From Acidobacteriota bacterium (GTDB lineage Bacteria; Acidobacteriota; UBA4820; DSQY01), in contig JBMFSH010000047.1 of the NCBI GenBank assembly GCA_049967655.1, positions 1 to 17,230 of the forward strand: a stretch of DNA of 17,230 nt. Direction: 5' to 3'. This document shows positions 224-14,175 of this stretch, piece by piece; positions within the stretch are counted from its first letter, which is position 1; each line of letters opens with the position of its first letter. The position numbers and the translations under genes were made by a program. The notes under the pieces are model-generated. The model was not told the origin of the DNA and did no database searches. It was given only the letters and a program-made list of their open reading frames with translations.

Positions 224-1441
224 TTACCCCGGAGAGACGAGGGCTCTGGCGGGGTCGAGGTAGGCGGCGCGGAGGGCGGGAGCCAGGCCCGAGAGGAGGC
301 CGAGCCCCACGGAGAGGGCGAACGACAGCGCCGCTCCGCTCCAGGGCCAAACGAGCGGCCAGCCAGCGGTAAGGCAGACGAGGGCGGTCCCGCCGAAGCC
401 GGTCAGCGCGCCGGCCGCCCCGCCCGTCCCGGAGAGGGCAGCGGCTTCTGCCAGGAACTGGAGCGCCACGGCTCCCCGCGTGGCTCCGATGGCCCGCCTC
501 AAGCCGATCTCCCCCGTACGCTCTCGCACCGAGAGGAGCATCACCGCCGCGATGCCGGCGCAGCCTGTCAGCAGCGAGACTCCGGCCACGGCCTCCATGA
601 GTCCCTGGAAAGCCGCACCCATGTCGTGCTGGGCCTTGAGGAGCTCCGCCGGATCCTGGATGGTGAAATCGTTGCCCCGGTTGAGGGGCAGGCGGTGGGC
701 CTGGCGCAGGACGGCGATCATGCGTCCCATGGTGGCGCCCAGATCCGCTCCGGGGCGGGCCTGGACCTCGATGCTCGCCAGATAGGAGACGCCGAAGAGC
801 CGGCCCATGGCCGTGGTGAGGGGAACATAGAGGGTATCGGCCCCCTGTTCGTCCGCTCCGCCCTCGTCCTGGACTACGCCCACGACCCGAAAAAGGACAC
901 CCCCCACGCGCAGATCCGCACCCAGTGGCCGGGCTCCCAGGCGCAGGTCCCGTACCGTTCTGGCACTCAGCACGGCCAGCCGGGCCTGGCCCCGAGTCTC
1001 CTCTGGCGTGAAGAACCGTCCGGCTGTCAGGTGTAGCCTCGACATGGCAAAATAGGGCGGCTCGACCCCCAGCACCGACACCAGCCCCTTCTCCCGGCCG
1101 CACGTCACGACCTTTTGGTCTCCGGCGATGCCCGAGGCCGAGGTGAGCTGGGGAACCTCCTGGAGGAGGGTTGCAGCATCAGCCGGCACGAGCGTGGTGA
1201 ACGACGCCACCTGCATCTGCCGGTTGCCGATGGGTTGGAACTCCCCCGCCTGGACCACGAGCACGCGGGTCCCCAGGGCGTCGAGACGGCGGTTCAGGTC
1301 CTTCTGGGCCGACTGCCCCGTCCCCAGCATGAGCGTCACCGCGCAGACCCCTACAAAGACCGCTGAGCAGGACAAGAAGGTCCTCGCCTTGTGAGCGACC
1401 AAAACCCCCAGCGAGGAGGCAAGCAGGCGGCGTGCCATCAT
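224..1441 (-). CDS. ABC transporter permease, MacB/FtsX family
   Basis: 405 aa; N-terminal TM helix, large periplasmic domain, three C-terminal TM helices, and the family motif [27 protein letters not shown]. Confidence 0.92.
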
Positions 1442-1465
1442 GGGTGAAAGTTCCGCGAGCCTTCG

Positions 1466-2143
1466 TCAGGCCACAGACCGGTCGAATTCCACGGTGCCGT
1501 CCCGAAGCGCTACGACCCGCTTGGCCCGAGCAGCCACGGCGGGATCATGCGTAACGAGGACGAGCGTTCGCCCCTGGGCGTGGAGCTGGTCGAAAAGATC
1601 CAGAATTTCGGCACCGGCCTTCTGGTCCAGGTTCCCCGTGGGCTCGTCGGCCAGGATGAGCGCCGGCTCGTTGATGAGGGCCCTAGCAATGGCCACCCGC
1701 TGTTGCTGCCCACCGGAGAGGGCATAAGGCTTGTACTTGACGCGATCCCCGAGTCCCACCTGCTCCAGTAGCCCCTTGCCGCGCTCCTTGGCATTTTTCG
1801 GGTAGTGCGGCGAATACAACAGGGGCAGCAACACATTGTCCAAGGCGGAGATCCTGGGCAGCAGGTGGAAGAGCTGGAAGACGAACCCGATGCGCTGGTT
1901 ACGGAGGCGTGAAAGGGCCCTGTCGCCCAGGTCCGTGACATCCTCTCCATCGAACAGGTAGCGGCCGCCCGAGGCCGAATCCAAGAGCCCAAGGACGTTC
2001 ATGAGGGTGCTCTTGCCCGTCCCGGAGGGGCCCATGAGGGCCACGTATTCGCCCTGTTCGATGGTGAGATCGATCCCCCGGAGCACCGGCGTCTCCACCC
2101 CACCCGCTTGGTAGGTCTTCTCTATCTTCTGGAGCTGGATCAT
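1466..2143 (-). CDS. ABC transporter ATP-binding protein, LolD/MacB type
   Basis: Start reassigned to ATG 2143 (AGGAGG upstream; MIQLQKIEK, 225 aa). Walker [10 protein letters not shown], signature LSGGQQQR, Walker [13 protein letters not shown]-loop VTHD. Confidence 0.95.
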
Positions 2144-2159
2144 GGGACCTCCTCTTTCA

Positions 2160-3242
2160 TCACGCCCCACCGCTCTGAGCCTGAGGAAGGAGGACCTCTT
2201 CCCCTTCGGACAGGCCGTCCTTGATGGGAATCTCTCCACCGCTCTGCGAACCGCAGACCACGACCTTTTTCTGGGGCTTGCCCTTCACCACCACCGTCAC
2301 GTAGCTGCTCCCCTGGGCGTCATACTGAACCGCCCCCGCGGGGACCACGAGGGCCGCCCGGTGTTCGCCCGTCTCGATGGAAACGGTGGCCGTCATGGCG
2401 GGACGTAGAATCCCCTTGGGGCCCTTCTGGATGGTGAGCAACACCACGTAGTTGACGACGTTGTTGCGCACCATCGCCTGGGGAATCACGGCCTGCACCG
2501 TTCCGTGGAAGGTCTCCGAGGGCGCCGCATCCACGGTGAAGGTAGCGCTCTGCCCGGGCTTCACGTGCCCGATGTCCACCTCGTCCACGTAGGCATCCAC
2601 CTGAAGGCGGTTCAGGTCTACGATCGTGACGAAGGTCGGTACCGCGAAGCTCGCGGCCACCGTCTCGCCCTCCTGCGTCGAAATGGCCGTGACCGTGCCT
2701 GAAATGGGTGCCCTCACGGTGGCGTAGCCTTGCATGATGCGCGCTGAGGCCAAGTGGCTTTGAGCACTTTCGAGAGCCGCCTTATCCACCGTGACGGTCT
2801 CGCGGGCAATGTCCAGGTCCTCCGGCGAGACGATGCCCTCCCGCTCCAAGCGGACCCGGCGCGCGAGAACCAGCTTGTCCAGATCCAGCTTGGCCCTGGC
2901 CTCCTTCACCGCTGTCCCGGCGTCCCGGACGGCCTGGTCCAGATCCGCGTGCTCGATCTCCGCCAGCACCTCGCCGGTCTGGACGGTGTCACCCACCTTT
3001 ACGTAGAGCTTCTGGAGAAGGCCTGAAATGCGGGGGCCCACCTTTACGTCCGCCCCCACCTGTGGCGTGATAGTGCCCGTGGCCGAGACGGTGCTCTCGA
3101 GCGTTCGCTGCTTCACCCGGACCAGCGTGCCGGTCACCTGGGCTTTCGGCTTCTTGCACCCCGCCAGACCAGCCAGGGCCACCACGGCCACGAGGGCCAC
3201 CATGACCCCTCTGCCCCTCCTGCACCGCCTCCTATGTACCAT
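2160..3242 (-). CDS. Efflux periplasmic adaptor (membrane fusion protein), MacA-like, predicted lipoprotein
   Basis: Likely start ATG 3242 (MVHRRR.., 360 aa); lipobox LAGC; lipoyl motifs VGPRISG..LYVKVGDTV and VRAPISGTV; VDEVDIGHVKPGQ; LRPAMTA. Confidence 0.9.
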   Translation of the reverse strand: MVHRRRCRRGRGVMVALVAVVALAGLAGCKKPKAQVTGTLVRVKQRTLESTVSATGTITPQVGADVKVGPRISGLLQKLYVKVGDTVQTGEVLAEIEHADLDQAVRDAGTAVKEARAKLDLDKLVLARRVRLEREGIVSPEDLDIARETVTVDKAALESAQSHLASARIMQGYATVRAPISGTVTAISTQEGETVAASFAVPTFVTIVDLNRLQVDAYVDEVDIGHVKPGQSATFTVDAAPSETFHGTVQAVIPQAMVRNNVVNYVVLLTIQKGPKGILRPAMTATVSIETGEHRAALVVPAGAVQYDAQGSSYVTVVVKGKPQKKVVVCGSQSGGEIPIKDGLSEGEEVLLPQAQSGGA

Positions 3243-3512
3243 CGTGAACCCCCGTATTCGAGATGGGCTTCCAAACCAGCCCGGCCTGCCTCCATGTTGA
3301 TACGAGACCGTGAGCCACAGTATGCGCCGAGCTCCAGCCACCTGCCCGAGCACTACGGAAAGAAGACCACCGCAGAAACCACGTGGATTTCGATCCCGCT
3401 GGGTTGGATCCACGCCCCCCTTGCTTCGTCGCAAGCCCCCGTTCTACATGGCCCATTCTCTTCAGCGCCGGCCGCCACCTCATAGGAATAGACGGCCCGG
3501 CCCCTATCCTGT

Positions 3513-5783
3513 CTAGCCGGCGCCCGAGTGCCCCTGCTCCTTACGGTTCCCCTGGCCTTGAGCCAGAACGGCATAGGCCCCCCCGAGGGCCAAGAGCTCC
3601 GCATGCGTCCCCTGCTCCACAATCCGGCCGCTTTCCAGCACCCAGATCCGGTCGGCGTTTTGAACCGTGCCCAGCCGGTGGGCGATGATGAGCCGCGTGC
3701 AGCCCAGCCGGGCCAGATTGGCGTGAATGCTGGCTTCTGTAGGAGGGTCCAGCTCACTCGTGGCCTCGTCCAGGAGGAGAATGGCCGGCCGCCGGACCAG
3801 CGCCCTGGCCAAGCAAATACGCTGGCGCTGCCCCCCGCTGATGTTGTTCGCCATTTCCGAGAGCAGGGTGTCGTAGCCCATCGGCATGGCTTCGATGTCA
3901 TCGGCGATACACGCCCGCCGCGCCGCCTCGCGGACCCGTTCAAAGGGCACGTCGGAGGCCCCGATCGTGATGTTGCGCCGGATGGTATCGTTGAAGAGAA
4001 AGGCATTCTGAACCACTACCCCCGTCTGCCGCCGCAGGCTGGGAAGATCGAGAACGGAGAGGCTCTTCCCATCCCACAGGACCTCCCCTTTCGTGCAGGG
4101 GTAGAGCCCCAGCAACACCTTGGCCAAGGTGCTTTTACCGGAGCCTGACTTCCCAACGAGAGCCACCAGCGCGCCTTCGGGCACCGTGGCGCTCACCTCT
4201 TTCAGAACCCACGGAGACTGCGGCCCGTAACGGAAGGACACATCCCGTACCTCGATTTGGCCTCGCAGCTCGGGGGCCGCTTGGGGGTGCCTCGGCTCGG
4301 GCGGCTCTTCAAAGACCTCTTCCAGCCGCCCCAGGTGCGTCCCCATGACCTGGAAGCTTTGCATGTTGTTCACGAGGGAGTTGAGCGGAGCGAGAAAGGC
4401 CCCGGCCAGGGCCGCAAAGCCCAGCATCTCCCCTAGGCTCAAGTCCCCCTGCAGCACGAGACGGGCGCCGTAGAGGAGCAACAGAAGAGGGCTCGCCACG
4501 GTCAGGACTGTACCCAGGCTTCTCAAGAGTACACCCCGTTTCTGCCGCCTGAACGAGGCCAGAAGCTGCTGCCCGAAGAATCCACGCCACGCTTGAAAGA
4601 CTTCGTCCTCCGCCCCCGAGGCTTTGATGGTTTCCACCCCCCGCAGGACCTCCACGAGGTAGCTCTGGCTGCGGCTCTGGGCCGCGATATCCTGGTGCAC
4701 CGGCCCCTGCATGACTTTGGCCTCCACCAGGGCCCACGCCACTTGCAGGACCGCCAGGGACAGGACCAGCAGCGCGAGAGGCCCATTCGTGGCCATCATC
4801 ACGCCCAGGTACAACACCACCAGCAGCCCATCCGTAGAGAGCGAGAGCAACTGTTGGGACAGCAATTCCCGCACGAGCGAGTTGCTGGAGAGGCGCATCA
4901 TCAGGTCGCCGGCCGACCGCACCTGAAAGAAAGAAAAAGGCAGAGACAGCAAGTGCTCAAAGAATCCCGCCATGGTGTGCTCGTCCACCATGACCTGCAG
5001 GCGGAGGAGGAGAAGACTTCGCCCCAGCGATACCACCCCATAGGCGGCCAGGTACAATCCCAATCCCAGGGCGGCCACACGCAGGCCTGGCAGAGAGTGG
5101 GCCGGTACGACCCGGTCCACGACATACGCCGTCAAAAGAGGCAGGGCCAACCCCAGCGCTTGAACAGCGAGGGACAAGAGGGCCACGAACGAAAGCGTGC
5201 CCCGCCGCTCCAGAAGCATGCGAAGAGGCCTTCGCCACGGCCGCTGCTTCTCCGCCTGGCCCTCGTACCCAGACAGGGGATCGAAGATCAGGGCCACGCC
5301 CGTAAACGACTTCCCCAGTTCCTCGATCGGCACGCAGGACCGTCTGCCCTCTGGGTCCAGGATCTCCGCACCTTTCCGGCCCACCTGGGCAAGCACGACG
5401 AAGTGCTGGAAGTTCCAGTGGAGAATGGCGGGGAGGGGCAAGTCCTTAAGGGCAGAGAGTTCAGCCCGCACGCCCTGCCCTCTCAGCCCGAAGGCCCGCG
5501 CGGCCCTGACGATCTGCTGGGCGGTCACCCCGTCGCGCACGATCCCCATTGCTTCGCGAATGTCGCGAAGTGGCACCTCGTGCCCGTAGGCCCCCAACAC
5601 CATCGCTAGGCAGGCAGCGCCGCAGTCCGTGGCGGTGGTTTGCACCACCAACGGCACCCGCCTCCGTCGCTCCCCCCACGGAAGACGCAGGGGTAGAAAA
5701 CCAGCCCGGTTGCCCAGGTGGTGTTGCAGGGCCTCGTCGCGAAAGAGGTTGGGCTGGGACCGCGCCTTTCGTTTCCGGGTCAT
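3513..5783 (-). CDS. lanT: Peptidase-containing ABC exporter (C39 peptidase + TMD + NBD), lanthipeptide leader removal and export
   Basis: 756 aa; C39 motifs QTTATDCGAACLAMV, ILHWNFQHFVVL and ILDP; Walker A GKSGSGKST, ISGGQRQR, LLLDEATSELD, IAHRL. Start overlaps the lanB stop (ATGA, 5780-5783). Confidence 0.95.
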   Translation of the reverse strand: MTRKRKARSQPNLFRDEALQHHLGNRAGFLPLRLPWGERRRRVPLVVQTTATDCGAACLAMVLGAYGHEVPLRDIREAMGIVRDGVTAQQIVRAARAFGLRGQGVRAELSALKDLPLPAILHWNFQHFVVLAQVGRKGAEILDPEGRRSCVPIEELGKSFTGVALIFDPLSGYEGQAEKQRPWRRPLRMLLERRGTLSFVALLSLAVQALGLALPLLTAYVVDRVVPAHSLPGLRVAALGLGLYLAAYGVVSLGRSLLLLRLQVMVDEHTMAGFFEHLLSLPFSFFQVRSAGDLMMRLSSNSLVRELLSQQLLSLSTDGLLVVLYLGVMMATNGPLALLVLSLAVLQVAWALVEAKVMQGPVHQDIAAQSRSQSYLVEVLRGVETIKASGAEDEVFQAWRGFFGQQLLASFRRQKRGVLLRSLGTVLTVASPLLLLLYGARLVLQGDLSLGEMLGFAALAGAFLAPLNSLVNNMQSFQVMGTHLGRLEEVFEEPPEPRHPQAAPELRGQIEVRDVSFRYGPQSPWVLKEVSATVPEGALVALVGKSGSGKSTLAKVLLGLYPCTKGEVLWDGKSLSVLDLPSLRRQTGVVVQNAFLFNDTIRRNITIGASDVPFERVREAARRACIADDIEAMPMGYDTLLSEMANNISGGQRQRICLARALVRRPAILLLDEATSELDPPTEASIHANLARLGCTRLIIAHRLGTVQNADRIWVLESGRIVEQGTHAELLALGGAYAVLAQGQGNRKEQGHSGAG

Positions 5784-8700
5784 AGTACGGCTTCGAGGCG
5801 CTCCGTCCGGTTCGCCTCCTTTTTGAGCCGGGCCATGCGGGATTCGCAGGCTTGCGCCAAGAAGGTGTAGAGCACCGCTTCATGGGCCCTGGCCCTGGCC
5901 CGCACCATGCGGTTGATGTGCATGTGCAGAAGGCTGGCCGCCAAGTCCGGCAGAGAGACCGTTATGTGGCCTTGCCGTCTCTTCTTGCGGAGGGCCGCGA
6001 TCACGGGGGCCATCTTGCGCGACCGCTCTTCCAAGACCCGCAACCCAGGAATCATGCTGGGGTCCCCGGATTCACCCATCTCCAGCAGGGTCTCCACCGC
6101 AGCCCTCTCCTTGCGGTACCGGCCGCCCAGGGCCTTCTTCAGCGCCACCGTGCCACCGAACTCCTGGAAGTACCCCTCTTTGAGACGGGTGAGCAGCGCC
6201 AGGGCAGTAGGATTTTCCAGGGCAAGATCCCCCAGCAGCCGGCTAGCGCCAATCAGGGCGAGCTTCCACCGTGCCTGGGCGCCCGCATCCCCCGTAAGGC
6301 CTCCCAGAATCCCAATCACAGCTTCGCTGTCCGCCTGAAATAGTTGCTCACAAAGCAGCATCCCCTCCGGCCCGCCGTACCGCTCCACCTCCCGCTCGTA
6401 GGTACAAATCTCCAGTCGGTGGAGAAGGCCAGCCCGGAGGTGTTTCTCCGCCTGCGCCCGGATCTCCGCCAGCACCTCCAGCAACAACCGCTGCGGTGCC
6501 CCGTGAAACCGCACCCGAAGGTGCGGATCGGGATCCGCGTAACGAATGAAGAACCACCCATCGGCCGCCTGGGAATGAAGGGCCTGTCGTACAAGGGGCG
6601 TCACTAGGCCCAGTAGCAACCGGTCCGCATTGGCCAGCCCGCAGTAGAATTTGACGTAGAGCCATTCGGAGCCCGGCGGGAAGGTGCGGGGCAGCCCTTT
6701 GCGGGGGAGGCTCGGAGCCGCATGGGTAGGCTGGTCCGCTGGTGGAGAAAAGAGGCGCGCTTCCGGACCGTTGTGGGAGGTGCGCACAAAGGGGATCACG
6801 AGCTCGTGAACAAACTTCCCCTCCGGTCCCTCCACACACCATTCGCCGGCGCCAGGATACAGCTCCAGCAGCACGGTTTCCGGGCGGTTCTTGACGTACT
6901 CGGCGAAGGTGTCCACCGCCAAGGGTAGTTCAAAGTCAATGAGAAGCTCATTATCTCCTTCGGCGAGATAAGCGAACCTGGGTATTCGTTTGTGCCCGGC
7001 CCACGCTTGAATGCGGCGAACCCGCTCTTCCCCCTGACCTTTACCCAGCGCCTCCATCTCCTGCCGCCGCAACCGCCACCGAGCCCGCGAAAAAACCAGC
7101 CGCCCCCAACGGACACGCGGCAGGAACGAACTTTGCTCCAGAAGCCCCCAGTTCCAGAAGAGCCCCGCCGCCACCTTGTGGTGCTGGAGCTGGCACAAGA
7201 ACCGGTAGGCCTTCAGGTTGAACGGAGAGCCGTAGTTATGGGCATTCGTCAGGCGAGGAATCACCTCCTTGCCTAGCCTCCGTGAACGCAGTGCGATCCG
7301 GCCACCCCGAACCGAGACCAGAAGGTCTTGCAACGGAAGTTGCTTCTCCTCCGGCGCGCTGGAGCGGCCGAGAAATGGGATCTCATAACTCCTCAATACC
7401 GGCCGGAAAACCACATTGCCGATCCGTCCCTCGGGCACGTGAGCGATCTCCGCGAACACCGCTTCGGGCTTTAGCGCCTCTTCCGCCTGAAGGTGCTCTT
7501 TCACTCTCCGGGTCAACTCCTCATCCATCGGGCAAAAGCGCCCGAGCAGGTTGGCGCCGGATGGGCCCGAAGCGGCGTGAATCCAAAGCCTGAAGTCACC
7601 CTGGTTCACCGCTTCACAAGAGGGCGCGGCCAACGTGGCCATCACGGAGAAGGCATCCGGCAGGGGAGGTGGATTCGGAGCCGACAGCGCTTCCATCTCC
7701 TTGCCATCCAACTCCATCTCCAGGTCTCCACTCCGGGCCGCCTCCTCCACCCGCGGCCAGAGAACGGGTTCAACCCTCGACCAGCGAACATCCGGTGCCG
7801 CACCCGCCCGCCCCAGGGGCAGGCCTTCTAGGAGCGGCGAAGCTATGCCCTCTTGCCCCTGCGAGCGCTCGAAGCCCACCCCCCACTCCTCGTCCAGGGC
7901 CGCGAGCAGGGGAATCTCTTGCCCTCCATAGCGCTCTTCGAAAACCCGGGCAAAGGCCTCCAGGGGATCGTCCCGCCGGGGGGGGTCATGCCGTGGAGGA
8001 CTTCCACGCCTTTCAGGATTTCCCGGATGACCCTCTCGCCCAGCGTGGCCGTCACCACGGGCTTGCGCATGTCCACCTGGAAGAGATGCTGAATCTCTAC
8101 GGGAGCGGGCAACGATTCCCGAAGGCCGGCGGCAATGGCTTCGTACCGGGCTGGCTCATGGCCCATGCCCCCGCTGTCTAGCTCCCGGAGAGCCTCCACG
8201 GCCTGCGCCAGCGCCTTCCCCAGCGGCGCTGTAGCCTCCTGCGAAGCCAATTCTCCAGCAAGCACCTCCGCCGCCTCTTCGCCGGTCACGAGCGGCTCAC
8301 ACTCCGGCACTAGTATCTGGCTCTCCACGAGCTGGGCCAGGTAGCCTTCAGCCTCGTCGGCGGAGACGCCCCCAAACCTCTCCACGAGGCCTGCGACCAG
8401 GGCGGACCCGGTCACTCCCCACCGTGCCGCCTCCACGACCTCCCGCAAGTAGGGAGTCCTTTGCACCTGAACCTGGTGGTAGCTTCTCCGCTGGCCGTTG
8501 AAGCGCCCCTCGGCATACAGGTACCCCTCCGGAGTTTCCTGAAGGCTTGAATTCGCCCGGAACCGCAAAGCCAGCCGTACCTCCGGACGCTTCAAAAGGG
8601 CCTGGACCAGCCCGTGAAGGTATTCAAAGTCCAGCCGCGTCTTGCGCTGGTAGTGCTCCCTCCCCACCAGCTCAAGGCGCGTCTCCTTCCCTACTTCCCC

Positions 8701-8991
8701 CAACGAATAGCCCGCAAACAGCCCAAAAGGCGTGGCCCGGTACGCCATGCGGGAAGAATAGCGGTACAGCGCCCTCGCCCGCCGCCCCTCCTTCCCCGCA
8801 GGCTCTTTGCTCCCGCCGTCCCCACCCGCTTGCCCGCCGAACTCCGGAGAACCCAGCCATACCGCTTCGCGAGACCGGTCGTCTGCGCCAAGCATCCCCC
8901 CCGCTGATGCTAGCAGCTTCTCCCCTTGGGATTGCGAAAGAAGAGGGGTGCGCAATACAATGAAACTAGCCTGGAAAGGAAGAGCGGCCAT
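5780..8991 (-). CDS. lanB: Class I lanthipeptide dehydratase, frameshifted at a C8 tract (7978-7985); 1070 aa if one C is added
   Basis: ORF 7843-8991 carries LRTPLL and YSSRMAYRATPFGLFAG. The -1 frame continues DDPLEAFARVFEERYGGQEIPLLAALDEEWGVGF into ORF 5780-7879 with GPSGANLLGRF, GNVVFRP, PRLTNAHNY, FLPRV and the elimination-domain motifs WLYVKFY, WFFIRYADPDPHLRVRF, YEREVERYGG, HMHINR. Confidence 0.93.
7978..7985 (-). repeat. C8 homopolymer (coding strand) at the lanB frameshift
   Basis: Coding strand reads ATG ACC CCC CCC GGC GGG ACG; C9 gives ATG ACC CCC CCC CGG CGG GAC GAT CCC CTG, which joins the two lanB ORFs. Confidence 0.85.
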
Positions 8992-9006
8992 AGCGCGAGA
9001 ACGGCC

Positions 9007-10338
9007 CTACATAGGACACGGTGGCATGTCTAACAACATACACCGGTCCCACATCGGCTCTACATCACTCACCGCCGCCAAGAGAGCCAGCCCGACGCCA
9101 CACGCTCCGTTGAGAAGACCTGGATTGTAACGCCAGAGAGGCTTCCCTGTTGTAAAGTTAGACATTTCGTATGTCCACCCACCAATTCCAGTACCAGGGT
9201 CCCGGCACTCCAATAGGGCACGGAACCAGCGGCGAGAGGCTTCCTTAAGCCGCCCTTCTCCCGTCGCTTGATAGGCCCGGTTGAATATGTGCGCCACACT
9301 GGCCAGACCATGGCACAGTCCAGGGCCGGTAGTTCCGGCTTCCTTAAGGGGTCTTTCACTTGCCTTGACGAAGGTATCGAGCGCCACCCGTCTCCATTCA
9401 GGTACATCCAGGCATACGCCCGCCATCCACAGACTCACAGCGATGGGCAGATCACCATAGCACCAGCGCAGGCGGGATGCATGAGGCTCAACATTTTCGG
9501 CCACCACTTCAGGGAAGAAAGAGCCCTCGTCATTGGAGAGACGCTGCTCTAATAGCCAGGCTACCGATCGCCTAAGCAGGGACGACACTTCTTCTCTCTC
9601 GAAACCGGCCTTATAAAGTTTAGCAAGAAAGGCGATCGCACCGGGATCACCGTGTGCCATGCCGAGATTACAATAACCGCTGGGATAGAGGTCTCGCATT
9701 TTGCCGGAAAGTATTTCTGGCGGGATGAACCAAGAGATAAGCTGCTGCTCTCTTCTTGCCAGGATGCCCATGCGAGACAAGATGGCGCGAAGGGCTCTGC
9801 TATATAGATCTGAACCAGGCCTGGTCAGAAAGTAAACGCCAAGGCCGGCGAGACCAAAAAGCAACTCAAAGCTTTGGCCTTGCCTTGTGTCTTCCAGTGA
9901 GGCGAGGGACAAGGCTTCGGCCTGCTCGCCTCCGATATCTTCAAAGCACTGGCAGCTCTCTGGGACTATCTTATCCAGCAAGACCGCCGAGAATAGAAAA
10001 CCAGGGAACCCTTCGTAGAGAGTGTTTCCCATCGTTGCACCGCTTGCCTGGTCAATGGCGCGGTTCATCTGCTCTGCCGCCGCGTCTAGCCACTCACCCT
10101 CCCGGCTGAAGCGGGCGAGCTCTCCGTAGAATAATGCGATGCCTGCGTGGCCCTGGGCGAGCGAGGCTGCGGTGATGGCGGTGCGGGTGGATGTGAATCC
10201 TAGCTCGGTTAGTTCTTCCAGAGGAAACAGACTCGACTCGGTTCCACCGGCCAAGTCTTGGGCAAGGCTTCGAATGGCTTCGATGGCCCCTTGCCTGGCT
10301 CCTCGGTCAAGAACAGGCTTCCAAGCCAGAGTATTCAC
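9007..10338 (-). CDS. lanC: Lanthionine cyclase
   Basis: 443 aa; NLGMAHG, zinc-ligand motifs RWCYGD and GLCHG, C-terminal GLLNGACGVGLALL..WDRCMLL. GTG start overlaps the upstream stop (GTGA, 10335-10338). Confidence 0.95.
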   Translation of the reverse strand: MNTLAWKPVLDRGARQGAIEAIRSLAQDLAGGTESSLFPLEELTELGFTSTRTAITAASLAQGHAGIALFYGELARFSREGEWLDAAAEQMNRAIDQASGATMGNTLYEGFPGFLFSAVLLDKIVPESCQCFEDIGGEQAEALSLASLEDTRQGQSFELLFGLAGLGVYFLTRPGSDLYSRALRAILSRMGILARREQQLISWFIPPEILSGKMRDLYPSGYCNLGMAHGDPGAIAFLAKLYKAGFEREEVSSLLRRSVAWLLEQRLSNDEGSFFPEVVAENVEPHASRLRWCYGDLPIAVSLWMAGVCLDVPEWRRVALDTFVKASERPLKEAGTTGPGLCHGLASVAHIFNRAYQATGEGRLKEASRRWFRALLECRDPGTGIGGWTYEMSNFTTGKPLWRYNPGLLNGACGVGLALLAAVSDVEPMWDRCMLLDMPPCPM

Positions 10339-11558
10339 CGAAGCAACTCGGGCAAGGGCTTCTTGAGCATCTTGCGCACCGGAACCAGCGCCATACTGGC
10401 TCCCACGGCGGCCCAGGTGATGAAGGTTATAAGAACATCATTAAGGGAAATGCCAATAAAGAGCTTCCAATCTATTGAGTAATCCGTGTTATGGTTGGCG
10501 AAATGGGCCCGCACGACCCAGGCCGTTACCCAGCTTGCGAGGACACCAAGAACGATGCTCGCCGTCAGCAAGATGGCGACCTCTACGGCATAGGCTTGAA
10601 GAACTTGCTCTCGGGTTGCCCCAAGGGCGCGCTGAATGCCTATTTCCCCTTTTCGCTGTTGCGCCAGGAGCGCAAAGAGATACCAGCCGATGGACAGCGC
10701 CAGCAAAGCTGACACTACCGTAACCAGCCAGGCTGCGAGACGCATCGGGAGGGTAACCTGTGAAAAATAGGCGCGCCTGTCTTTCGAAGACACTACTAGA
10801 AAGGGATTGCGGCTCGCAGCCGCTAGACCACGGTTTTTTCGAAGCGCCATCACCGCCTTTCCAGCTGCTTCCTCCAATGGCACATCCCGGGGAACAGAAA
10901 TCAAAATACCGCCTAGCTCACTGGATCGTTTAAACCGTGCCTGCAAAGTGGAGTAAGGGATGGTGAGCACAGCAATCCGCGTTCTGCCGAGAACTGTTCT
11001 AAGGGAGGGAAGGACATCGTCCGTACCGATTATGGTGAAGGTGAGGCCATTAAGTGTAATGGCCTTGCCTAGCGCCGTGCGAGGATCCGCAGAGAGAAGC
11101 TTGAGTAGGGCCGGGTTGGCGACCCCTACCAGCCTCGCGTCACGTTCATCTTCTTCCGAAATCCACCTTCCTGACTCCAGAACATTTGAGGGATCCATCT
11201 GGGGGTAGACGCTGGCGAAGACGCCGCACTTTTGGGGACCTCCATCTAGAGCGGTCACCGCCCCGGAAAGGGGATATGCGTTTACTCTTGCGCGCCCTGA
11301 TAGAGCCTGCTCTACCGCGTGAAGATCCTTAAGTGTAAGCGCCTTCCCACTGGCGAGGTCCGGGTAGATTCCAACACTATGTGGGCCACCGTCCATGATG
11401 TTCATTGCAGCGATCGCCCGACCGAGACTGCTTTGTATGGACAGAACAAAACCAAAGGATCCGACAGCCACTGACAGCACTACTCCCATCAGCATGTACC
11501 GGCTAGCATGACCTGCCAGACTGTTTCCGGCCCTCTGTAAGCTAGGAAGCCACTTCAT
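10335..11558 (-). CDS. ABC transporter permease, MacB/FtsX family (divergent, no adjacent ATPase)
   Basis: Start reassigned to ATG 11558 (MKWLPSL.., 407 aa; AAGAGGG upstream). TM helix, periplasmic domain (SGRWISEEDE, LGKAITLNGLTFTIIG), motif QRKGEIGIQRALGATREQV, terminal TM helices. Confidence 0.88.
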   Translation of the reverse strand: MKWLPSLQRAGNSLAGHASRYMLMGVVLSVAVGSFGFVLSIQSSLGRAIAAMNIMDGGPHSVGIYPDLASGKALTLKDLHAVEQALSGRARVNAYPLSGAVTALDGGPQKCGVFASVYPQMDPSNVLESGRWISEEDERDARLVGVANPALLKLLSADPRTALGKAITLNGLTFTIIGTDDVLPSLRTVLGRTRIAVLTIPYSTLQARFKRSSELGGILISVPRDVPLEEAAGKAVMALRKNRGLAAASRNPFLVVSSKDRRAYFSQVTLPMRLAAWLVTVVSALLALSIGWYLFALLAQQRKGEIGIQRALGATREQVLQAYAVEVAILLTASIVLGVLASWVTAWVVRAHFANHNTDYSIDWKLFIGISLNDVLITFITWAAVGASMALVPVRKMLKKPLPELLR

Positions 11559-11600
11559 GGGATTCAGCCCTCTTGAACCTGTGGGATGTTCTTGCGTTCT

Positions 11601-11633
11601 CTCGGTGTACCGGCATGGTGCCGGTACACCGAG
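11601..11633. terminator. Perfect 15-bp stem-loop just downstream of lanA (attenuator or mRNA-stabilising hairpin)
   Basis: CTCGGTGTACCGGCA-TGG-TGCCGGTACACCGAG, 14 nt after the lanA stop. No U-tract follows on the lanA strand, so it is not a canonical intrinsic terminator in that direction. Confidence 0.7.
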
Positions 11634-11647
11634 CTTTGTTCCATGGT

Positions 11648-11872
11648 TCAGCAGGCCCCCGCGGCGCTGCAGAGGTGCTGGCAGCTCGTCTCCGCAGAAC
11701 ACGTACAACAATTACTAATCTGAGTGTCACCTGGTCCTACAATAATCGTGGTGGGCCAGCCGAAACCTCCCCCCCTGATCTGGCCGAGGTCCTCTCCCGT
11801 CAGATTGTGGATCGTTTCCTTGCTCAGTACCAGCTTCTTGACCTTGAGCCCCTTCTTTTCCATCTTCTGCAT
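11648..11872 (-). CDS. lanA: Class I lanthipeptide precursor peptide (74 aa; 35-aa leader, 39-aa core)
   Basis: 3' part of ORF 11648-12202: MQKMEKKGLKVKKLVLSKETIHNLTGEDLGQIRGG/GFGWPTTIIVGPGDTQISNCCTCSAETSCQHLCSAAGAC. LxLxKx5L leader motif, double-Gly site, core with 6 Cys and 9 Ser/Thr. Alternative start at 11863. Confidence 0.92.
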   Translation of the reverse strand: MQKMEKKGLKVKKLVLSKETIHNLTGEDLGQIRGGGFGWPTTIIVGPGDTQISNCCTCSAETSCQHLCSAAGAC

Positions 11873-11927
11873 GGTGCCTGCTGTGAGGATCCCTTTGCCG
11901 GCCCCCTGTGGGCCAGCTCCGACCGGA

Positions 11928-11961
11928 AGATTACCCCCCCCCCCCCCCCATCTTTTGTCAA
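11928..11961 (-). promoter_or_regulatory. Sigma70-type promoter of the lan operon with a poly-G spacer
   Basis: Minus strand reads TTGACA(11961-11956) AAAGAT G16(11949-11934) TAATCT(11933-11928); spacer 22 nt; 55 nt upstream of the lanA ATG. Confidence 0.7.
11934..11949. repeat. C16/G16 homopolymer tract
   Basis: 16 consecutive C on the plus strand, by far the longest homopolymer in the window. Confidence 0.95.
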
Positions 11962-12264
11962 GAAATGCGGGCTGTTTGGTCCCCTGCCGGGTTTTCTGCT
12001 GGGCCATTTCCCCCTTCAGCCATGGATACGCCGGACCCACACTTCGCACCCGGTAGCCCGGTTCTGCACCCCAAGCCCACCGCTTCTTGGCCGCCTGATC
12101 GCCATCGCATGCGCCATCTTGGGCAAATTTGTCCTGTCTCCCTCCTCTCCCTGAGAACCCAGGGCACGGGGGTCCCCGGTCACCATGCGCGAATTGCCTC
12201 ACAGCCTAGCCCTGGATTCTGTTCCGGTCCTGGAACACCTCGCCGTGGCCCGGGTTGCCGGGAC

Positions 12265-12621
12265 TTGTACATTCTGGCGCCGCCCAACCAAAGCTGACAC
12301 AAGAAAGGCTGATGTGCATTACCATTGCCCTCCCCTCTCGGGACGAGCAGGAAGTCAGCATGAAGTGGCTGAGGAAAGAGGACGTCGGCACTTCGTGATG
12401 GGATCGAAAAGGAAAAGCGCCAAGTTGCCCTCCTCCGCGAATACCGCATGCGCCTGGTGGCGGACGTGGTGACGGGCAAGGTGGACGTTCGCGAGGCCGC
12501 GGCCAACCTCCCCGCCGAACCCGAGGCCGAGAACGAAACCATCGAGCCCAACGAGGACCTCGACCTCCCCCAGGCCGCCGAGGAGGAGGGGAGCTATGGT
12601 GGGGGCAAAGAAAAGGATTAG
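12265..12621 (+). pseudogene. hsdS: 3' remnant of a type I restriction-modification specificity subunit
   Basis: Not in the ORF track. From 12273: SGAAQPKLTQERLMCITIALPSRDEQEVSMKWLRKE; frameshift near 12380; then TSALRDGIEKEKRQVALLREYRMRLVADVVTGKVDVREAAANLP plus an acidic tail, TAG at 12619-12621. These are typical HsdS C-terminal motifs (LPxxxEQ, LLxEYRxxLxxDVVTGK). No start codon or 5' part. Confidence 0.85.
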
Positions 12622-12640
12622 TGCCTTTGATCTTAAGCGC

Positions 12641-12669
12641 TTGCACGATTCGCGAATCGCGAATATATT
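12641..12669 (+). promoter_or_regulatory. Sigma70-type promoter with a 14-bp palindrome in the spacer; predicted leaderless transcript
   Basis: TTGCAC(12641-12646)-N17-TATATT(12664-12669); ATG starts at 12676; perfect palindrome CGATTCGCGAATCG at 12646-12659; no Shine-Dalgarno sequence. Confidence 0.75.
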
Positions 12670-12675
12670 TGAGCC

Positions 12676-13179
12676 ATGGTACTGAAACCGCAGGACCTCG
12701 TCATCGCGTTGAAGCTCTCCCACATGGGCTCAGGGGCCTGGACTTACGAGAGCCTCGCCAAGGATCTCGCCATGAGCCCGTCGGAAGCCCACAGCGGCGT
12801 GAAGCGGCTCATGCAGGCCAAGCTCCTCACCCCGAACCGAACCGTCATCCGGGAGTCCCTTCGGGAGTTCCTCGTCCACGGCGTGCGCTACGCCTTCCCT
12901 CCTACCTTGGGGGGGAGGTCCCGTGGCGTGCCGACGGCGCATGGCGCGCAGCCCTTGGCGGCCCAGATCCAGGCCTCCGGCGAGGACCTGCCCGTCTGGC
13001 CCTACCCGGAGGGCACCGTCCGAGGGCAGAGTTTCTCGCCTCTCTACCGGTCCGTCCCTGCGGTGGCCCTCAAGGACCCGCCTCTCTACGAACTCCTGGC
13101 TCTCACGGACGCCGTGCGGGGCGGGCGGGCCCGTGAGCGCGAGCTGGCGGCCAAGATGCTCAGCGAGCGCCTGAGATGA
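12676..13179 (+). CDS. HTH-domain protein, putative antitoxin/autoregulator of an AbiE-like (type IV TA) pair
   Basis: 167 aa; HTH-like segment WTYESLAKDLAMSPSEAHSGVKRL; conserved-looking blocks EFLVHGVRYAFP, RGVPTAH, PVWP, PLYRSVP, GRARERELA. Stop overlaps the next start (ATGA). Confidence 0.7.
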   Translation: MVLKPQDLVIALKLSHMGSGAWTYESLAKDLAMSPSEAHSGVKRLMQAKLLTPNRTVIRESLREFLVHGVRYAFPPTLGGRSRGVPTAHGAQPLAAQIQASGEDLPVWPYPEGTVRGQSFSPLYRSVPAVALKDPPLYELLALTDAVRGGRARERELAAKMLSERLR

Positions 13180-13880
13180 GGCTCTCCGAGGGGGAATTGG
13201 AACGCCTCACGACCGTGGCACGGCAGCTAGAGCCACTACACACCAAGAGCGTCTTTCTGGGCGGGGCCATCGTGGGGCTCCTCGTCACGGACCCGGCAGG
13301 GGCCGAGGTCAGGCCGACCAAGGACGTGGATGTGGTGGTCGAAGTTGCGACCTACTTCGAGTACACGGAGATCGAGGCACGGCTGTGGGACTTGGGATTC
13401 CTCCTCGACCAGGAGGAGGGCGCCCCCCTCTGCCGGTGGCTCGTGGAGGGGATCAAGGTGGATATCATGCCGCCCGATACCAGCGTGATCGGCTTCTCCA
13501 ACCCCTGGTACCCGGAGGCCGTCCGGACCGCCCAGCCCTTCCAGTTGGGAATAGGGCTCAGCATCCACCTGATCAACGCGCCATGCTTTCTCGCCACGAA
13601 GCTGGCGGCTTTCAGCTCGCGGGGACGGGGAGATTACCTGCGGAGTCCTGACATCGAGGATGTCGTGATCGTGTTGGACGGGAGGCCCGAGATGGGAGAC
13701 GAGATCGCGAGCAGTCCGTCGGCCCTGCGTGAGTTTCTCGCATCGGAGAGCAGGGCCCTCCTGGAGACCCCGGCCCTTCTGAGGGCGCTCGTTGGGCACC
13801 TCGACCCTGACGAGGCCAGCCAAGCGCGGGAGGGGCTGATCCTCCGCCGGCTCCGGCACATTGCCGACATGAAAGGGTGA
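13176..13880 (+). CDS. Pol-beta-superfamily nucleotidyltransferase, AbiEii-like putative toxin
   Basis: 234 aa; VFLGGA, RPTKDVDV (DxD), VDIMP, ATKLAAF..RG and DIEDV motifs. Confidence 0.72.
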   Translation: MRLSEGELERLTTVARQLEPLHTKSVFLGGAIVGLLVTDPAGAEVRPTKDVDVVVEVATYFEYTEIEARLWDLGFLLDQEEGAPLCRWLVEGIKVDIMPPDTSVIGFSNPWYPEAVRTAQPFQLGIGLSIHLINAPCFLATKLAAFSSRGRGDYLRSPDIEDVVIVLDGRPEMGDEIASSPSALREFLASESRALLETPALLRALVGHLDPDEASQAREGLILRRLRHIADMKG

Positions 13881-13884
13881 CGCC

Positions 13885-14175
13885 ATGCCCACCGACACGA
13901 GCGAGAAGGGTCTGGAGAGCCTGATCGTCGCCTCGCTGACGGGGCGGAGCGGGCAGGAGGTCTTTGAGGGGACGCCTACCAGCGAGCACCCGCCGGCCTA
14001 CGACAACGGCTGGTACGTTCAGGGCGATCCCAGAGACTTCGACCGCGACCACGCGGTGGACCTCACCAAGCTCCTGGCCTTCCTCCAGGCCACCCAGCCC
14101 GAGGTGGTCCAGACCCTCGGGCTTGAACAGGACGGGCCCAAGCGGTAGCAGTTCCTGGCGCGCCTCCAAGGCGAG
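13885..14175 (+). pseudogene. hsdR: 5' remnant of a type I restriction endonuclease subunit R
   Basis: MPTDTSEKGLESLI..GWYVQGDPRDFDRDHAVDL..LLAFLQATQP..DGPKR*QFLARLQGE resembles an HsdR N-terminus; in-frame TAG at 14146-14148; similarity ends at about 14175. Confidence 0.78.

What the first reader, a model, noticed from the sequence alone, without database searches (positions are those of the whole stretch)
11928..11961. Poly-G tract inside the -35/-10 spacer: candidate phase-variable promoter for a lanthipeptide cluster
Seen: on the lanA strand, TTGACA-AAAGAT-G16-TAATCT lies 55 nt upstream of the precursor ATG. The -35 is a perfect consensus and the -10 keeps the key T, A and final T. The spacer is 22 nt; G11 would give the optimal 17. 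Established: slipped-strand length change of a homopolymer in the promoter spacer tunes expression in contingency loci such as Neisseria porA. Inference: lanthipeptide production here is switched stochastically rather than by a regulator (none is present in the window), and this allele is OFF or low. I do not know of this being described for a RiPP cluster. G16 could also form a G-quadruplex.
Basis: partly seen in the sequence, partly recalled or inferred. Interest (0 to 1): 0.85.

Follow-up and report, generated by a model that had tools for sequence, protein, structure and literature searches.

The report
Poly-G switch on lanthipeptide promoter
A run of 16 G's sits between the two recognition boxes of the likely promoter of a peptide-antibiotic-type (lanthipeptide) gene cluster; it is probably a slippage-driven on/off switch of a kind well known for surface proteins, unusual on such a cluster, and a key enzyme gene of the cluster is frameshifted in this assembly.

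Summary
Observation confirmed: TTGACA, 6 nt, G16, TAATCT lies 55 nt upstream of a class I lanthipeptide precursor. It is not chance: both internal G-runs of 12 or more in this genome are flanked by -35/-10 boxes, and the genome's TTGACA promoters peak at 17-bp spacing (59 of 117), so 22 bp is likely off or low. The design recurs in 40 of 301 genomes of the phylum (reversed-pattern control: 1), orthologous promoters differ in tract length between species, and about 2,100 GTDB stretches carry it, mostly before secreted proteins. This scan also found it earlier on other DNA. The mechanism is therefore the known porA type. The cargo is unusual: 0 of 29 other precursors in the phylum have such a tract, and my searches found no paper on it. 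Switching at this locus is unproven: no reads or second allele were available. New member of a known kind; interest 0.4.

The parts
11956..11961 (-). -35 hexamer TTGACA (6/6)
11934..11949 (-). G16 homopolymer on the non-template strand, ending at the -10; spacer 22 nt
11928..11933 (-). -10 hexamer TAATCT (3/6, no TG extension); start site predicted near 11920-11922
   Evidence: start site inferred
11648..11872 (-). lanA, 74-aa class I lanthipeptide precursor with GG-type leader and Ser/Thr/Cys-rich core
   Evidence: NF038153 over cut-off; start supported by the G009 homologue
11601..11633 (-). 15-bp perfect hairpin after lanA, no U-tail on the coding strand; likely stabilises lanA mRNA or attenuates read-through
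   Evidence: z = -4.64; role inferred
10335..11522 (-). MacB/FtsX-type ABC permease (start approximate)
9007..10338 (-). lanC cyclase; an alternative contig (C116) joins an ISL3 end to it at position 9191
7843..8991 (-). lanB, 5' piece (PF04738 profile positions 2-302)
7978..7985 (-). C8 run on the coding strand at which lanB changes frame
5780..7978 (-). lanB, 3' piece (PF04738 302-648 and PF14028)
3513..5783 (-). lanT, C39 peptidase ABC exporter
224..3434 (-). membrane-fusion protein, ABC ATPase and MacB-type permease

Best explanation
The G16 run fills the spacer of what is likely the sigma-70 promoter of the lanthipeptide operon and probably works as a porA-type contingency switch, in which replication slippage would change the -35/-10 distance and the assembled 22-bp allele is likely off or low. 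Shown: the sequence, the 17-bp optimum of this genome, the recurrence of the design in relatives, and different tract lengths at orthologous promoters between species. Inferred: transcription from this site, slippage within a population, and an ON state near G11. The cluster looks horizontally acquired and seems to have recruited a switch that this lineage normally uses for secreted proteins. In the assembled majority genotype the pathway is probably non-producing anyway, because lanB is frameshifted at a C8 run.
For: 2 of 2 internal G-runs of 12 or more carry both boxes, against 1 of 28,927 four-nt runs; spacer peak at 17 in 59 of 117 pairs. No other minus-strand consensus promoter in the window. 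Pattern in 40 of 301 phylum genomes, reversed control 1 match. Spacers of 61 such sites spread from 12 to 24 with 11 at 17. Orthologous promoters of the same genes: G9, G13 and G15+TGG (spacers 15, 19, 24) in three congeners; G10 vs G19 and G14 vs G9+C in G017 vs G009. 81 of 110 genes behind such promoters in a GTDB sample have a signal-peptide-like N-terminus, against 9 of 77 and 5 of 27 controls. MutS and MutL frames are open, so instability would be local. Established mechanism: porA poly-G spacer (PMC3899988, passages); tprL poly-G (PMC7864442, abstract).
Against: No second allele of this locus: 0 metagenome matches, no DNA homologue of the promoter region in 40 relatives. The lanA homologue of G009 has no such promoter in the aligned upstream region, so the tract is not conserved with the cluster. 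G16 is five steps from the predicted optimum. Differences between species show mutability over long times, not rapid reversible switching. Long G-runs are visibly mis-assembled in some relatives (G14 and G20 versions of one promoter around a gap in L024; G38 beside Ns). lanB is broken here and in G009.
Confidence: 0.68

Rival explanations
1. Relic: the pathway is decaying, and the tract has drifted long under relaxed selection or selection against production. It no longer serves as a reversible switch.
For: lanB frameshift, ISL3 path in lanC, independent TAG in lanB of G009; Asp at a LanC position that is Val or Leu in 4 of 4 aligned homologues; neighbouring fragments of type I R-M and IS1634 genes.
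Against: Even the predicted ON allele needs about 11 G, and only 3 runs of 11 exist in the genome, so the promoter would have been unstable by design before any decay. The lanB break lies in a homopolymer and could revert. The other genes have open frames.
Confidence: 0.15
2. The length is an assembly or sequencing artefact: the true tract is near G11 (ON) or otherwise different from 16.
For: No reads could be examined. Garbled or inflated G-runs occur in relatives' assemblies.
Against: Both flanks are clean. Contig ends overlap by 77 bp (89 of 294 ends recur elsewhere), which points to a short-read de Bruijn assembly; by inference a 16-nt run shorter than the k-mers must be spanned by reads. 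No excess of frame changes at coding G/C runs of 8-9 (1 of 57 and 0 of 10, against 1.3% at random sites), though that test missed the lanB break.
Confidence: 0.09
3. A stable long-spacer promoter that needs an activator (MerR-like distortion), or one controlled by a G-quadruplex.
For: Spacers of 19-20 are the commonest in the GTDB sample (56 of 122), although the search demanded 11 or more G.
Against: A homopolymer has no dyad for a MerR dimer, and 22 bp exceeds the 19 bp of mer promoters (abstract start of PMC11049809). With a G8 threshold, spacers fall on both sides of 17. The tract lies upstream of the melted region (established knowledge).
Confidence: 0.08

Closest known systems
Neisseria meningitidis porA promoter (van der Ende et al. 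1995, as summarised in PMC3899988)
   Same: Poly-G between -35 and -10; one-base changes alter spacing and transcription.
   Different: There variation and its effect are measured and the gene is an outer-membrane porin. Here only sequence evidence exists and the cargo is a biosynthetic operon.
Treponema pallidum tprL promoter poly-G (PMC7864442)
   Same: G-run of varying length inside the promoter affects activity.
   Different: Surface antigen of a pathogen; start site and reporter data exist.
Neisseria gonorrhoeae nap island (PMC11798529)
   Same: Horizontally acquired island of bacteriocin-like GG-leader peptides with likely homopolymer phase variation.
   Different: Tracts are inside the napR and napC reading frames, not in a promoter spacer; no lanthionine enzymes are described in the passages I read.
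Class I lanthipeptide clusters (LanA, LanB, LanC, LanT)
   Same: All four components are present by profile.
   Different: lanB is frameshifted; no LanR/LanK or LanI was recognised in the window; nisin-type clusters are autoinduced by two-component systems (recalled).

Membership tests
Promoter-spacer homopolymer contingency locus (porA type) | Homopolymer between -35 and -10 consensus boxes upstream of a gene | tested here: met
Promoter-spacer homopolymer contingency locus (porA type) | Host polymerase has a narrow spacing optimum | tested here: met
   59 of 117 TTGACA/TAnnnT pairs at 17 bp; sequence statistics only
Promoter-spacer homopolymer contingency locus (porA type) | Tract length varies among close relatives or within a population at this locus | tested here: inconclusive
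   No second copy found; variation seen only at other promoters of the same design, between species
Promoter-spacer homopolymer contingency locus (porA type) | Transcription starts at this promoter and depends on tract length | not testable with these tools
   needs start-site mapping and reporters
Promoter-spacer homopolymer contingency locus (porA type) | High-frequency reversible switching | not testable with these tools
   needs culture or deep reads
Class I lanthipeptide cluster | Precursor with class I leader and Ser/Thr/Cys core | tested here: met
   NF038153 26 bits, cut-off 22
Class I lanthipeptide cluster | LanC cyclase with conserved AHG, WCY and CHG motifs | tested here: met
   PF05147; motifs in alignment; their catalytic roles are recalled
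Class I lanthipeptide cluster | Intact LanB dehydratase | tested here: not met
   frame change at 7978-7985 inside PF04738; G019 homologue is one 1089-aa frame
Class I lanthipeptide cluster | Exporter and leader protease | tested here: met
   C39 peptidase ABC transporter

The most novel reading that the evidence does not exclude
A two-tier slippage switch gates a RiPP pathway: the promoter G-tract sets transcription and the C-run in lanB sets whether the dehydratase is made, so only rare cells produce the lanthipeptide. This would be simple-repeat phase variation of a natural-product pathway in an environmental lineage, and one reason such clusters look silent.
Probability: 0.25. Interest if true: 0.68.

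Novelty: new member of a known kind. Interest (0 to 1): 0.4.

Why it matters
If it switches, production of a secreted modified peptide would be a bet-hedged trait set by repeat slippage rather than by quorum sensing. It would extend contingency promoters from surface antigens to specialised metabolism and give a sequence-level sign for finding silent clusters. The mechanism itself is ordinary, and the value here is limited by the broken lanB and the lack of allele data.

Tried and rejected
Sequencing runs for window 9000-12400: none was listed, so no reads were laid. Exact flank pattern in metagenome contigs: 0 (records near the own genome may be left out). DNA search of 40 relatives: no homologue of the promoter region. 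LanA protein search: only itself. 80 metagenome lanC loci (616,429 bases): no close cluster, one G9 run outside a promoter, 11 lanA-like ORFs in 6 loci with at most G7 within 160 nt upstream. Translational switch through the 184-codon frame running across the tract into lanA: rejected, because open frames of 130-245 codons are common around other lanA matches, the G009 frame is 91 codons, and the only upstream promoter-like site scores 7 of 12. Mini-ORF ATG-Gly5-TAA over the tract: no ribosome-binding site or upstream promoter seen; not pursued. Alternative -35 at 17 bp: the hexamer matches 2 of 6 (read from the sequence). Genome-wide homopolymer indel errors: not supported. Mutator background: MutS and MutL frames open. 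G-quadruplex: not tested. One search gave no paper with porA tract lengths.

Full report
Observation. The minus strand of 11928-11961 reads TTGACA, AAAGAT, G16, TAATCT, and the precursor ATG is 55 nt downstream. None of 200 window shuffles gave the pattern. The window is the whole of contig C47 of a 3.14-Mb, 66.7% GC assembly in 147 contigs. G16 is its longest G/C run; the other two above 11 nt are a G15 on C2 and a G15 at the end of C34. The lineage was not determined directly. Named LanC homologues are from Thermoanaerobaculia and Aminicenantes, and the acidobacterial family TIGR03436 passes its cut-off in a same-family and a same-phylum genome but not in the own genome, so Acidobacteriota is likely.

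Is it a promoter? Among 257 TTGACA sites, 117 pair with TAnnnT at 13-27 nt and 59 of those are at 17. A 3-of-6 -10 like TAATCT occurs in 14 of the 59. Both internal G-runs of 12 or more have a -35 within 9 nt upstream and a -10 within 3 nt downstream; so does 1 of 3 runs of 11, against 1 of 28,927 runs of 4 and none of the C-runs of 6 or more in the control orientation. The consensus scan found no minus-strand promoter at 16-18 bp in the window. A 22-bp spacer is therefore likely poorly used; this is inference.

The operon. Downstream are lanA (NF038153), a 15-bp hairpin (z = -4.64), a MacB-type permease, lanC, lanB, a C39 exporter and a membrane-fusion/ATPase/permease set. On the other side lie a type I specificity fragment and the candidate defence pair PDC-M21A/B, an IS1634 fragment and IS21. 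GC falls to about 55% over lanC and the permease. No lan regulator family was hit among the 16 and 11 window proteins scanned.

lanB changes frame at the C8 run 7978-7985, while the G019 homologue is one 1089-aa frame. Coding G/C runs of 8 and 9 elsewhere show a frame change in 1 of 57 and 0 of 10 scorable cases, against 1.3% at random sites, so the assembly is not full of homopolymer indels; the detector missed the lanB break, so it is not very sensitive. Contig C116 carries an ISL3 transposase and ends in 77 bp identical to lanC 9115-9191, which I read as an alternative path with an insertion in lanC. G009 (same family) has an orthologous cluster at about 70% nucleotide identity with one TAG in lanB. 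Its lanA homologue, on another contig whose linkage is inferred, has no TTGACA-poly-G in the aligned upstream region.

The design in relatives. TTGACA, 2-9 nt, at least 8 G, then TAnnnT occurs in 40 of 301 phylum genomes; the reversed pattern matched once. At 61 distinct sites (shortest match each) spacers run from 12 to 24 with 11 at 17, against 56 of 106 at 17 for own-genome pairs without a G6 run. I entered 107 for 106 in the Fisher test (p about 2e-5); the sets differ in genomes and kin are not independent, so the p value is only indicative. The promoter of one 25-codon gene has G9, G13 and G15+TGG in three congeners. Two more orthologous pairs differ between G017 and G009: G10 vs G19 and G14 vs G9+C. 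These are differences between species, not within populations. Some long runs are clearly mis-assembled; by inference from k-mer assembly, runs of 20 or more are most at risk and a clean-flanked G16 less so.

Across bacteria. The GTDB scan (at least 11 G) returned 123 loci from 4 of 64 parts, about 2,100 stretches estimated, from many phyla. Of 122 promoters parsed, 110 had a downstream ORF, and 81 of those had a signal-peptide-like hydrophobic segment by a crude heuristic, against 9 of 77 own-genome and 5 of 27 same-locus controls. Pfam hits were mostly pilin, LRR, fn3, YSIRK and similar surface domains; none was a lanthipeptide family, but most proteins had no hit and about 40 were cut short by the flank. 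No reversed control was run at this scale.

How rare is the pairing with a lanthipeptide? NF038153 hit 15 of 401 phylum genomes with 38 matches, of which 30 were fetched. Of the 29 other than this one, none has more than G7 within 400 nt upstream (one had only 88 nt; tandem precursors may have their promoter further away). Eleven lanA-like ORFs in metagenome loci gave the same result.

Literature. PMC3899988 (passages) describes porA and hifA/hifB spacing switches. PMC7864442 (abstract) shows the tprL poly-G effect. PMC11798529 (passages) reports likely phase-variable bacteriocin-like peptides through coding tracts. Passages of PMC4746626, PMC11868660, PMC12926258 and PMC5084427 showed no phase-variable lanthipeptide cluster. 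Searches listed no paper whose title or abstract start describes a spacer homopolymer on a RiPP cluster; I saw only listings for most, one search listed 25 of 335, and the library lacks most subscription papers. No supplements were read. Earlier notes of this scan describe the same architecture in other genomes; none held all words of my lanthipeptide query.

Verdict. It works like a porA-type contingency promoter, probably in an off or low state, on an unusual cargo whose assembled copy is probably non-producing. Membership stays incomplete because variation and function at this locus are untested. New member of a known kind; interest 0.4.

Noticed in passing
window 7978-7985: lanB frameshift at a C8 run; the G009 orthologue is broken independently by a TAG, while G019 is intact.
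   Followed up: yes
G000:C116 (L075) and window 9115-9191: ISL3 transposase contig joined to lanC by a 77-bp overlap: probable subpopulation with an insertion in lanC.
   Followed up: partly
L331 1563-1637 (G000:C2), L330, L329: Conserved 25-codon hydrophobic peptide gene behind a poly-G spacer promoter in three congeners; in G000 it is followed by a GC-rich inverted repeat and faces a 1394-aa gene that reads like a cyclase/AAA/TPR protein (by eye). No NCBIfam hit.
   Followed up: partly
L006 4471-9047 (G000:C11), L216 (G009:C5), L024: Recurring operon behind homopolymer-spacer promoters: a small secreted Cys-rich peptide ending in P or YP, a roughly 310-360 aa protein without family hit, and a large carboxypeptidase-regulatory-like repeat protein (L024 checked for the peptide only).
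   Followed up: partly
G000:C23 42727-42753: TTGACA-G8-TACCAT promoter (15-bp spacer) before a 67-aa secreted-type peptide.
   Followed up: no
L049, L057, L069, L205, L206, L044: A family of roughly 200-340 aa secreted-type proteins in several family genomes, each behind a G9-G14 spacer promoter.
   Followed up: no
window 12448-14148: Type I R-M remnants (hsdS C-terminus by PADLOC; probable hsdR N-terminus by eye) around the candidate defence pair PDC-M21A/B, next to the lan cluster.
   Followed up: partly
window 9007-10338: LanC has Asp in the AHG-x-P motif where 4 of 4 aligned homologues have Val or Leu; possibly damaging.
   Followed up: no
L024 522-631 (G010:C64): One scaffold holds G14 and G20 versions of the same promoter around an N gap, the second with a garbled upstream flank: long G-run lengths in assemblies can be artefacts.
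   Followed up: partly
G000:C34 26267-26281 (L007): G15 at a contig end upstream of the type IV pilus pilM-Q-like operon (by eye); no TTGACA beside it.
   Followed up: no
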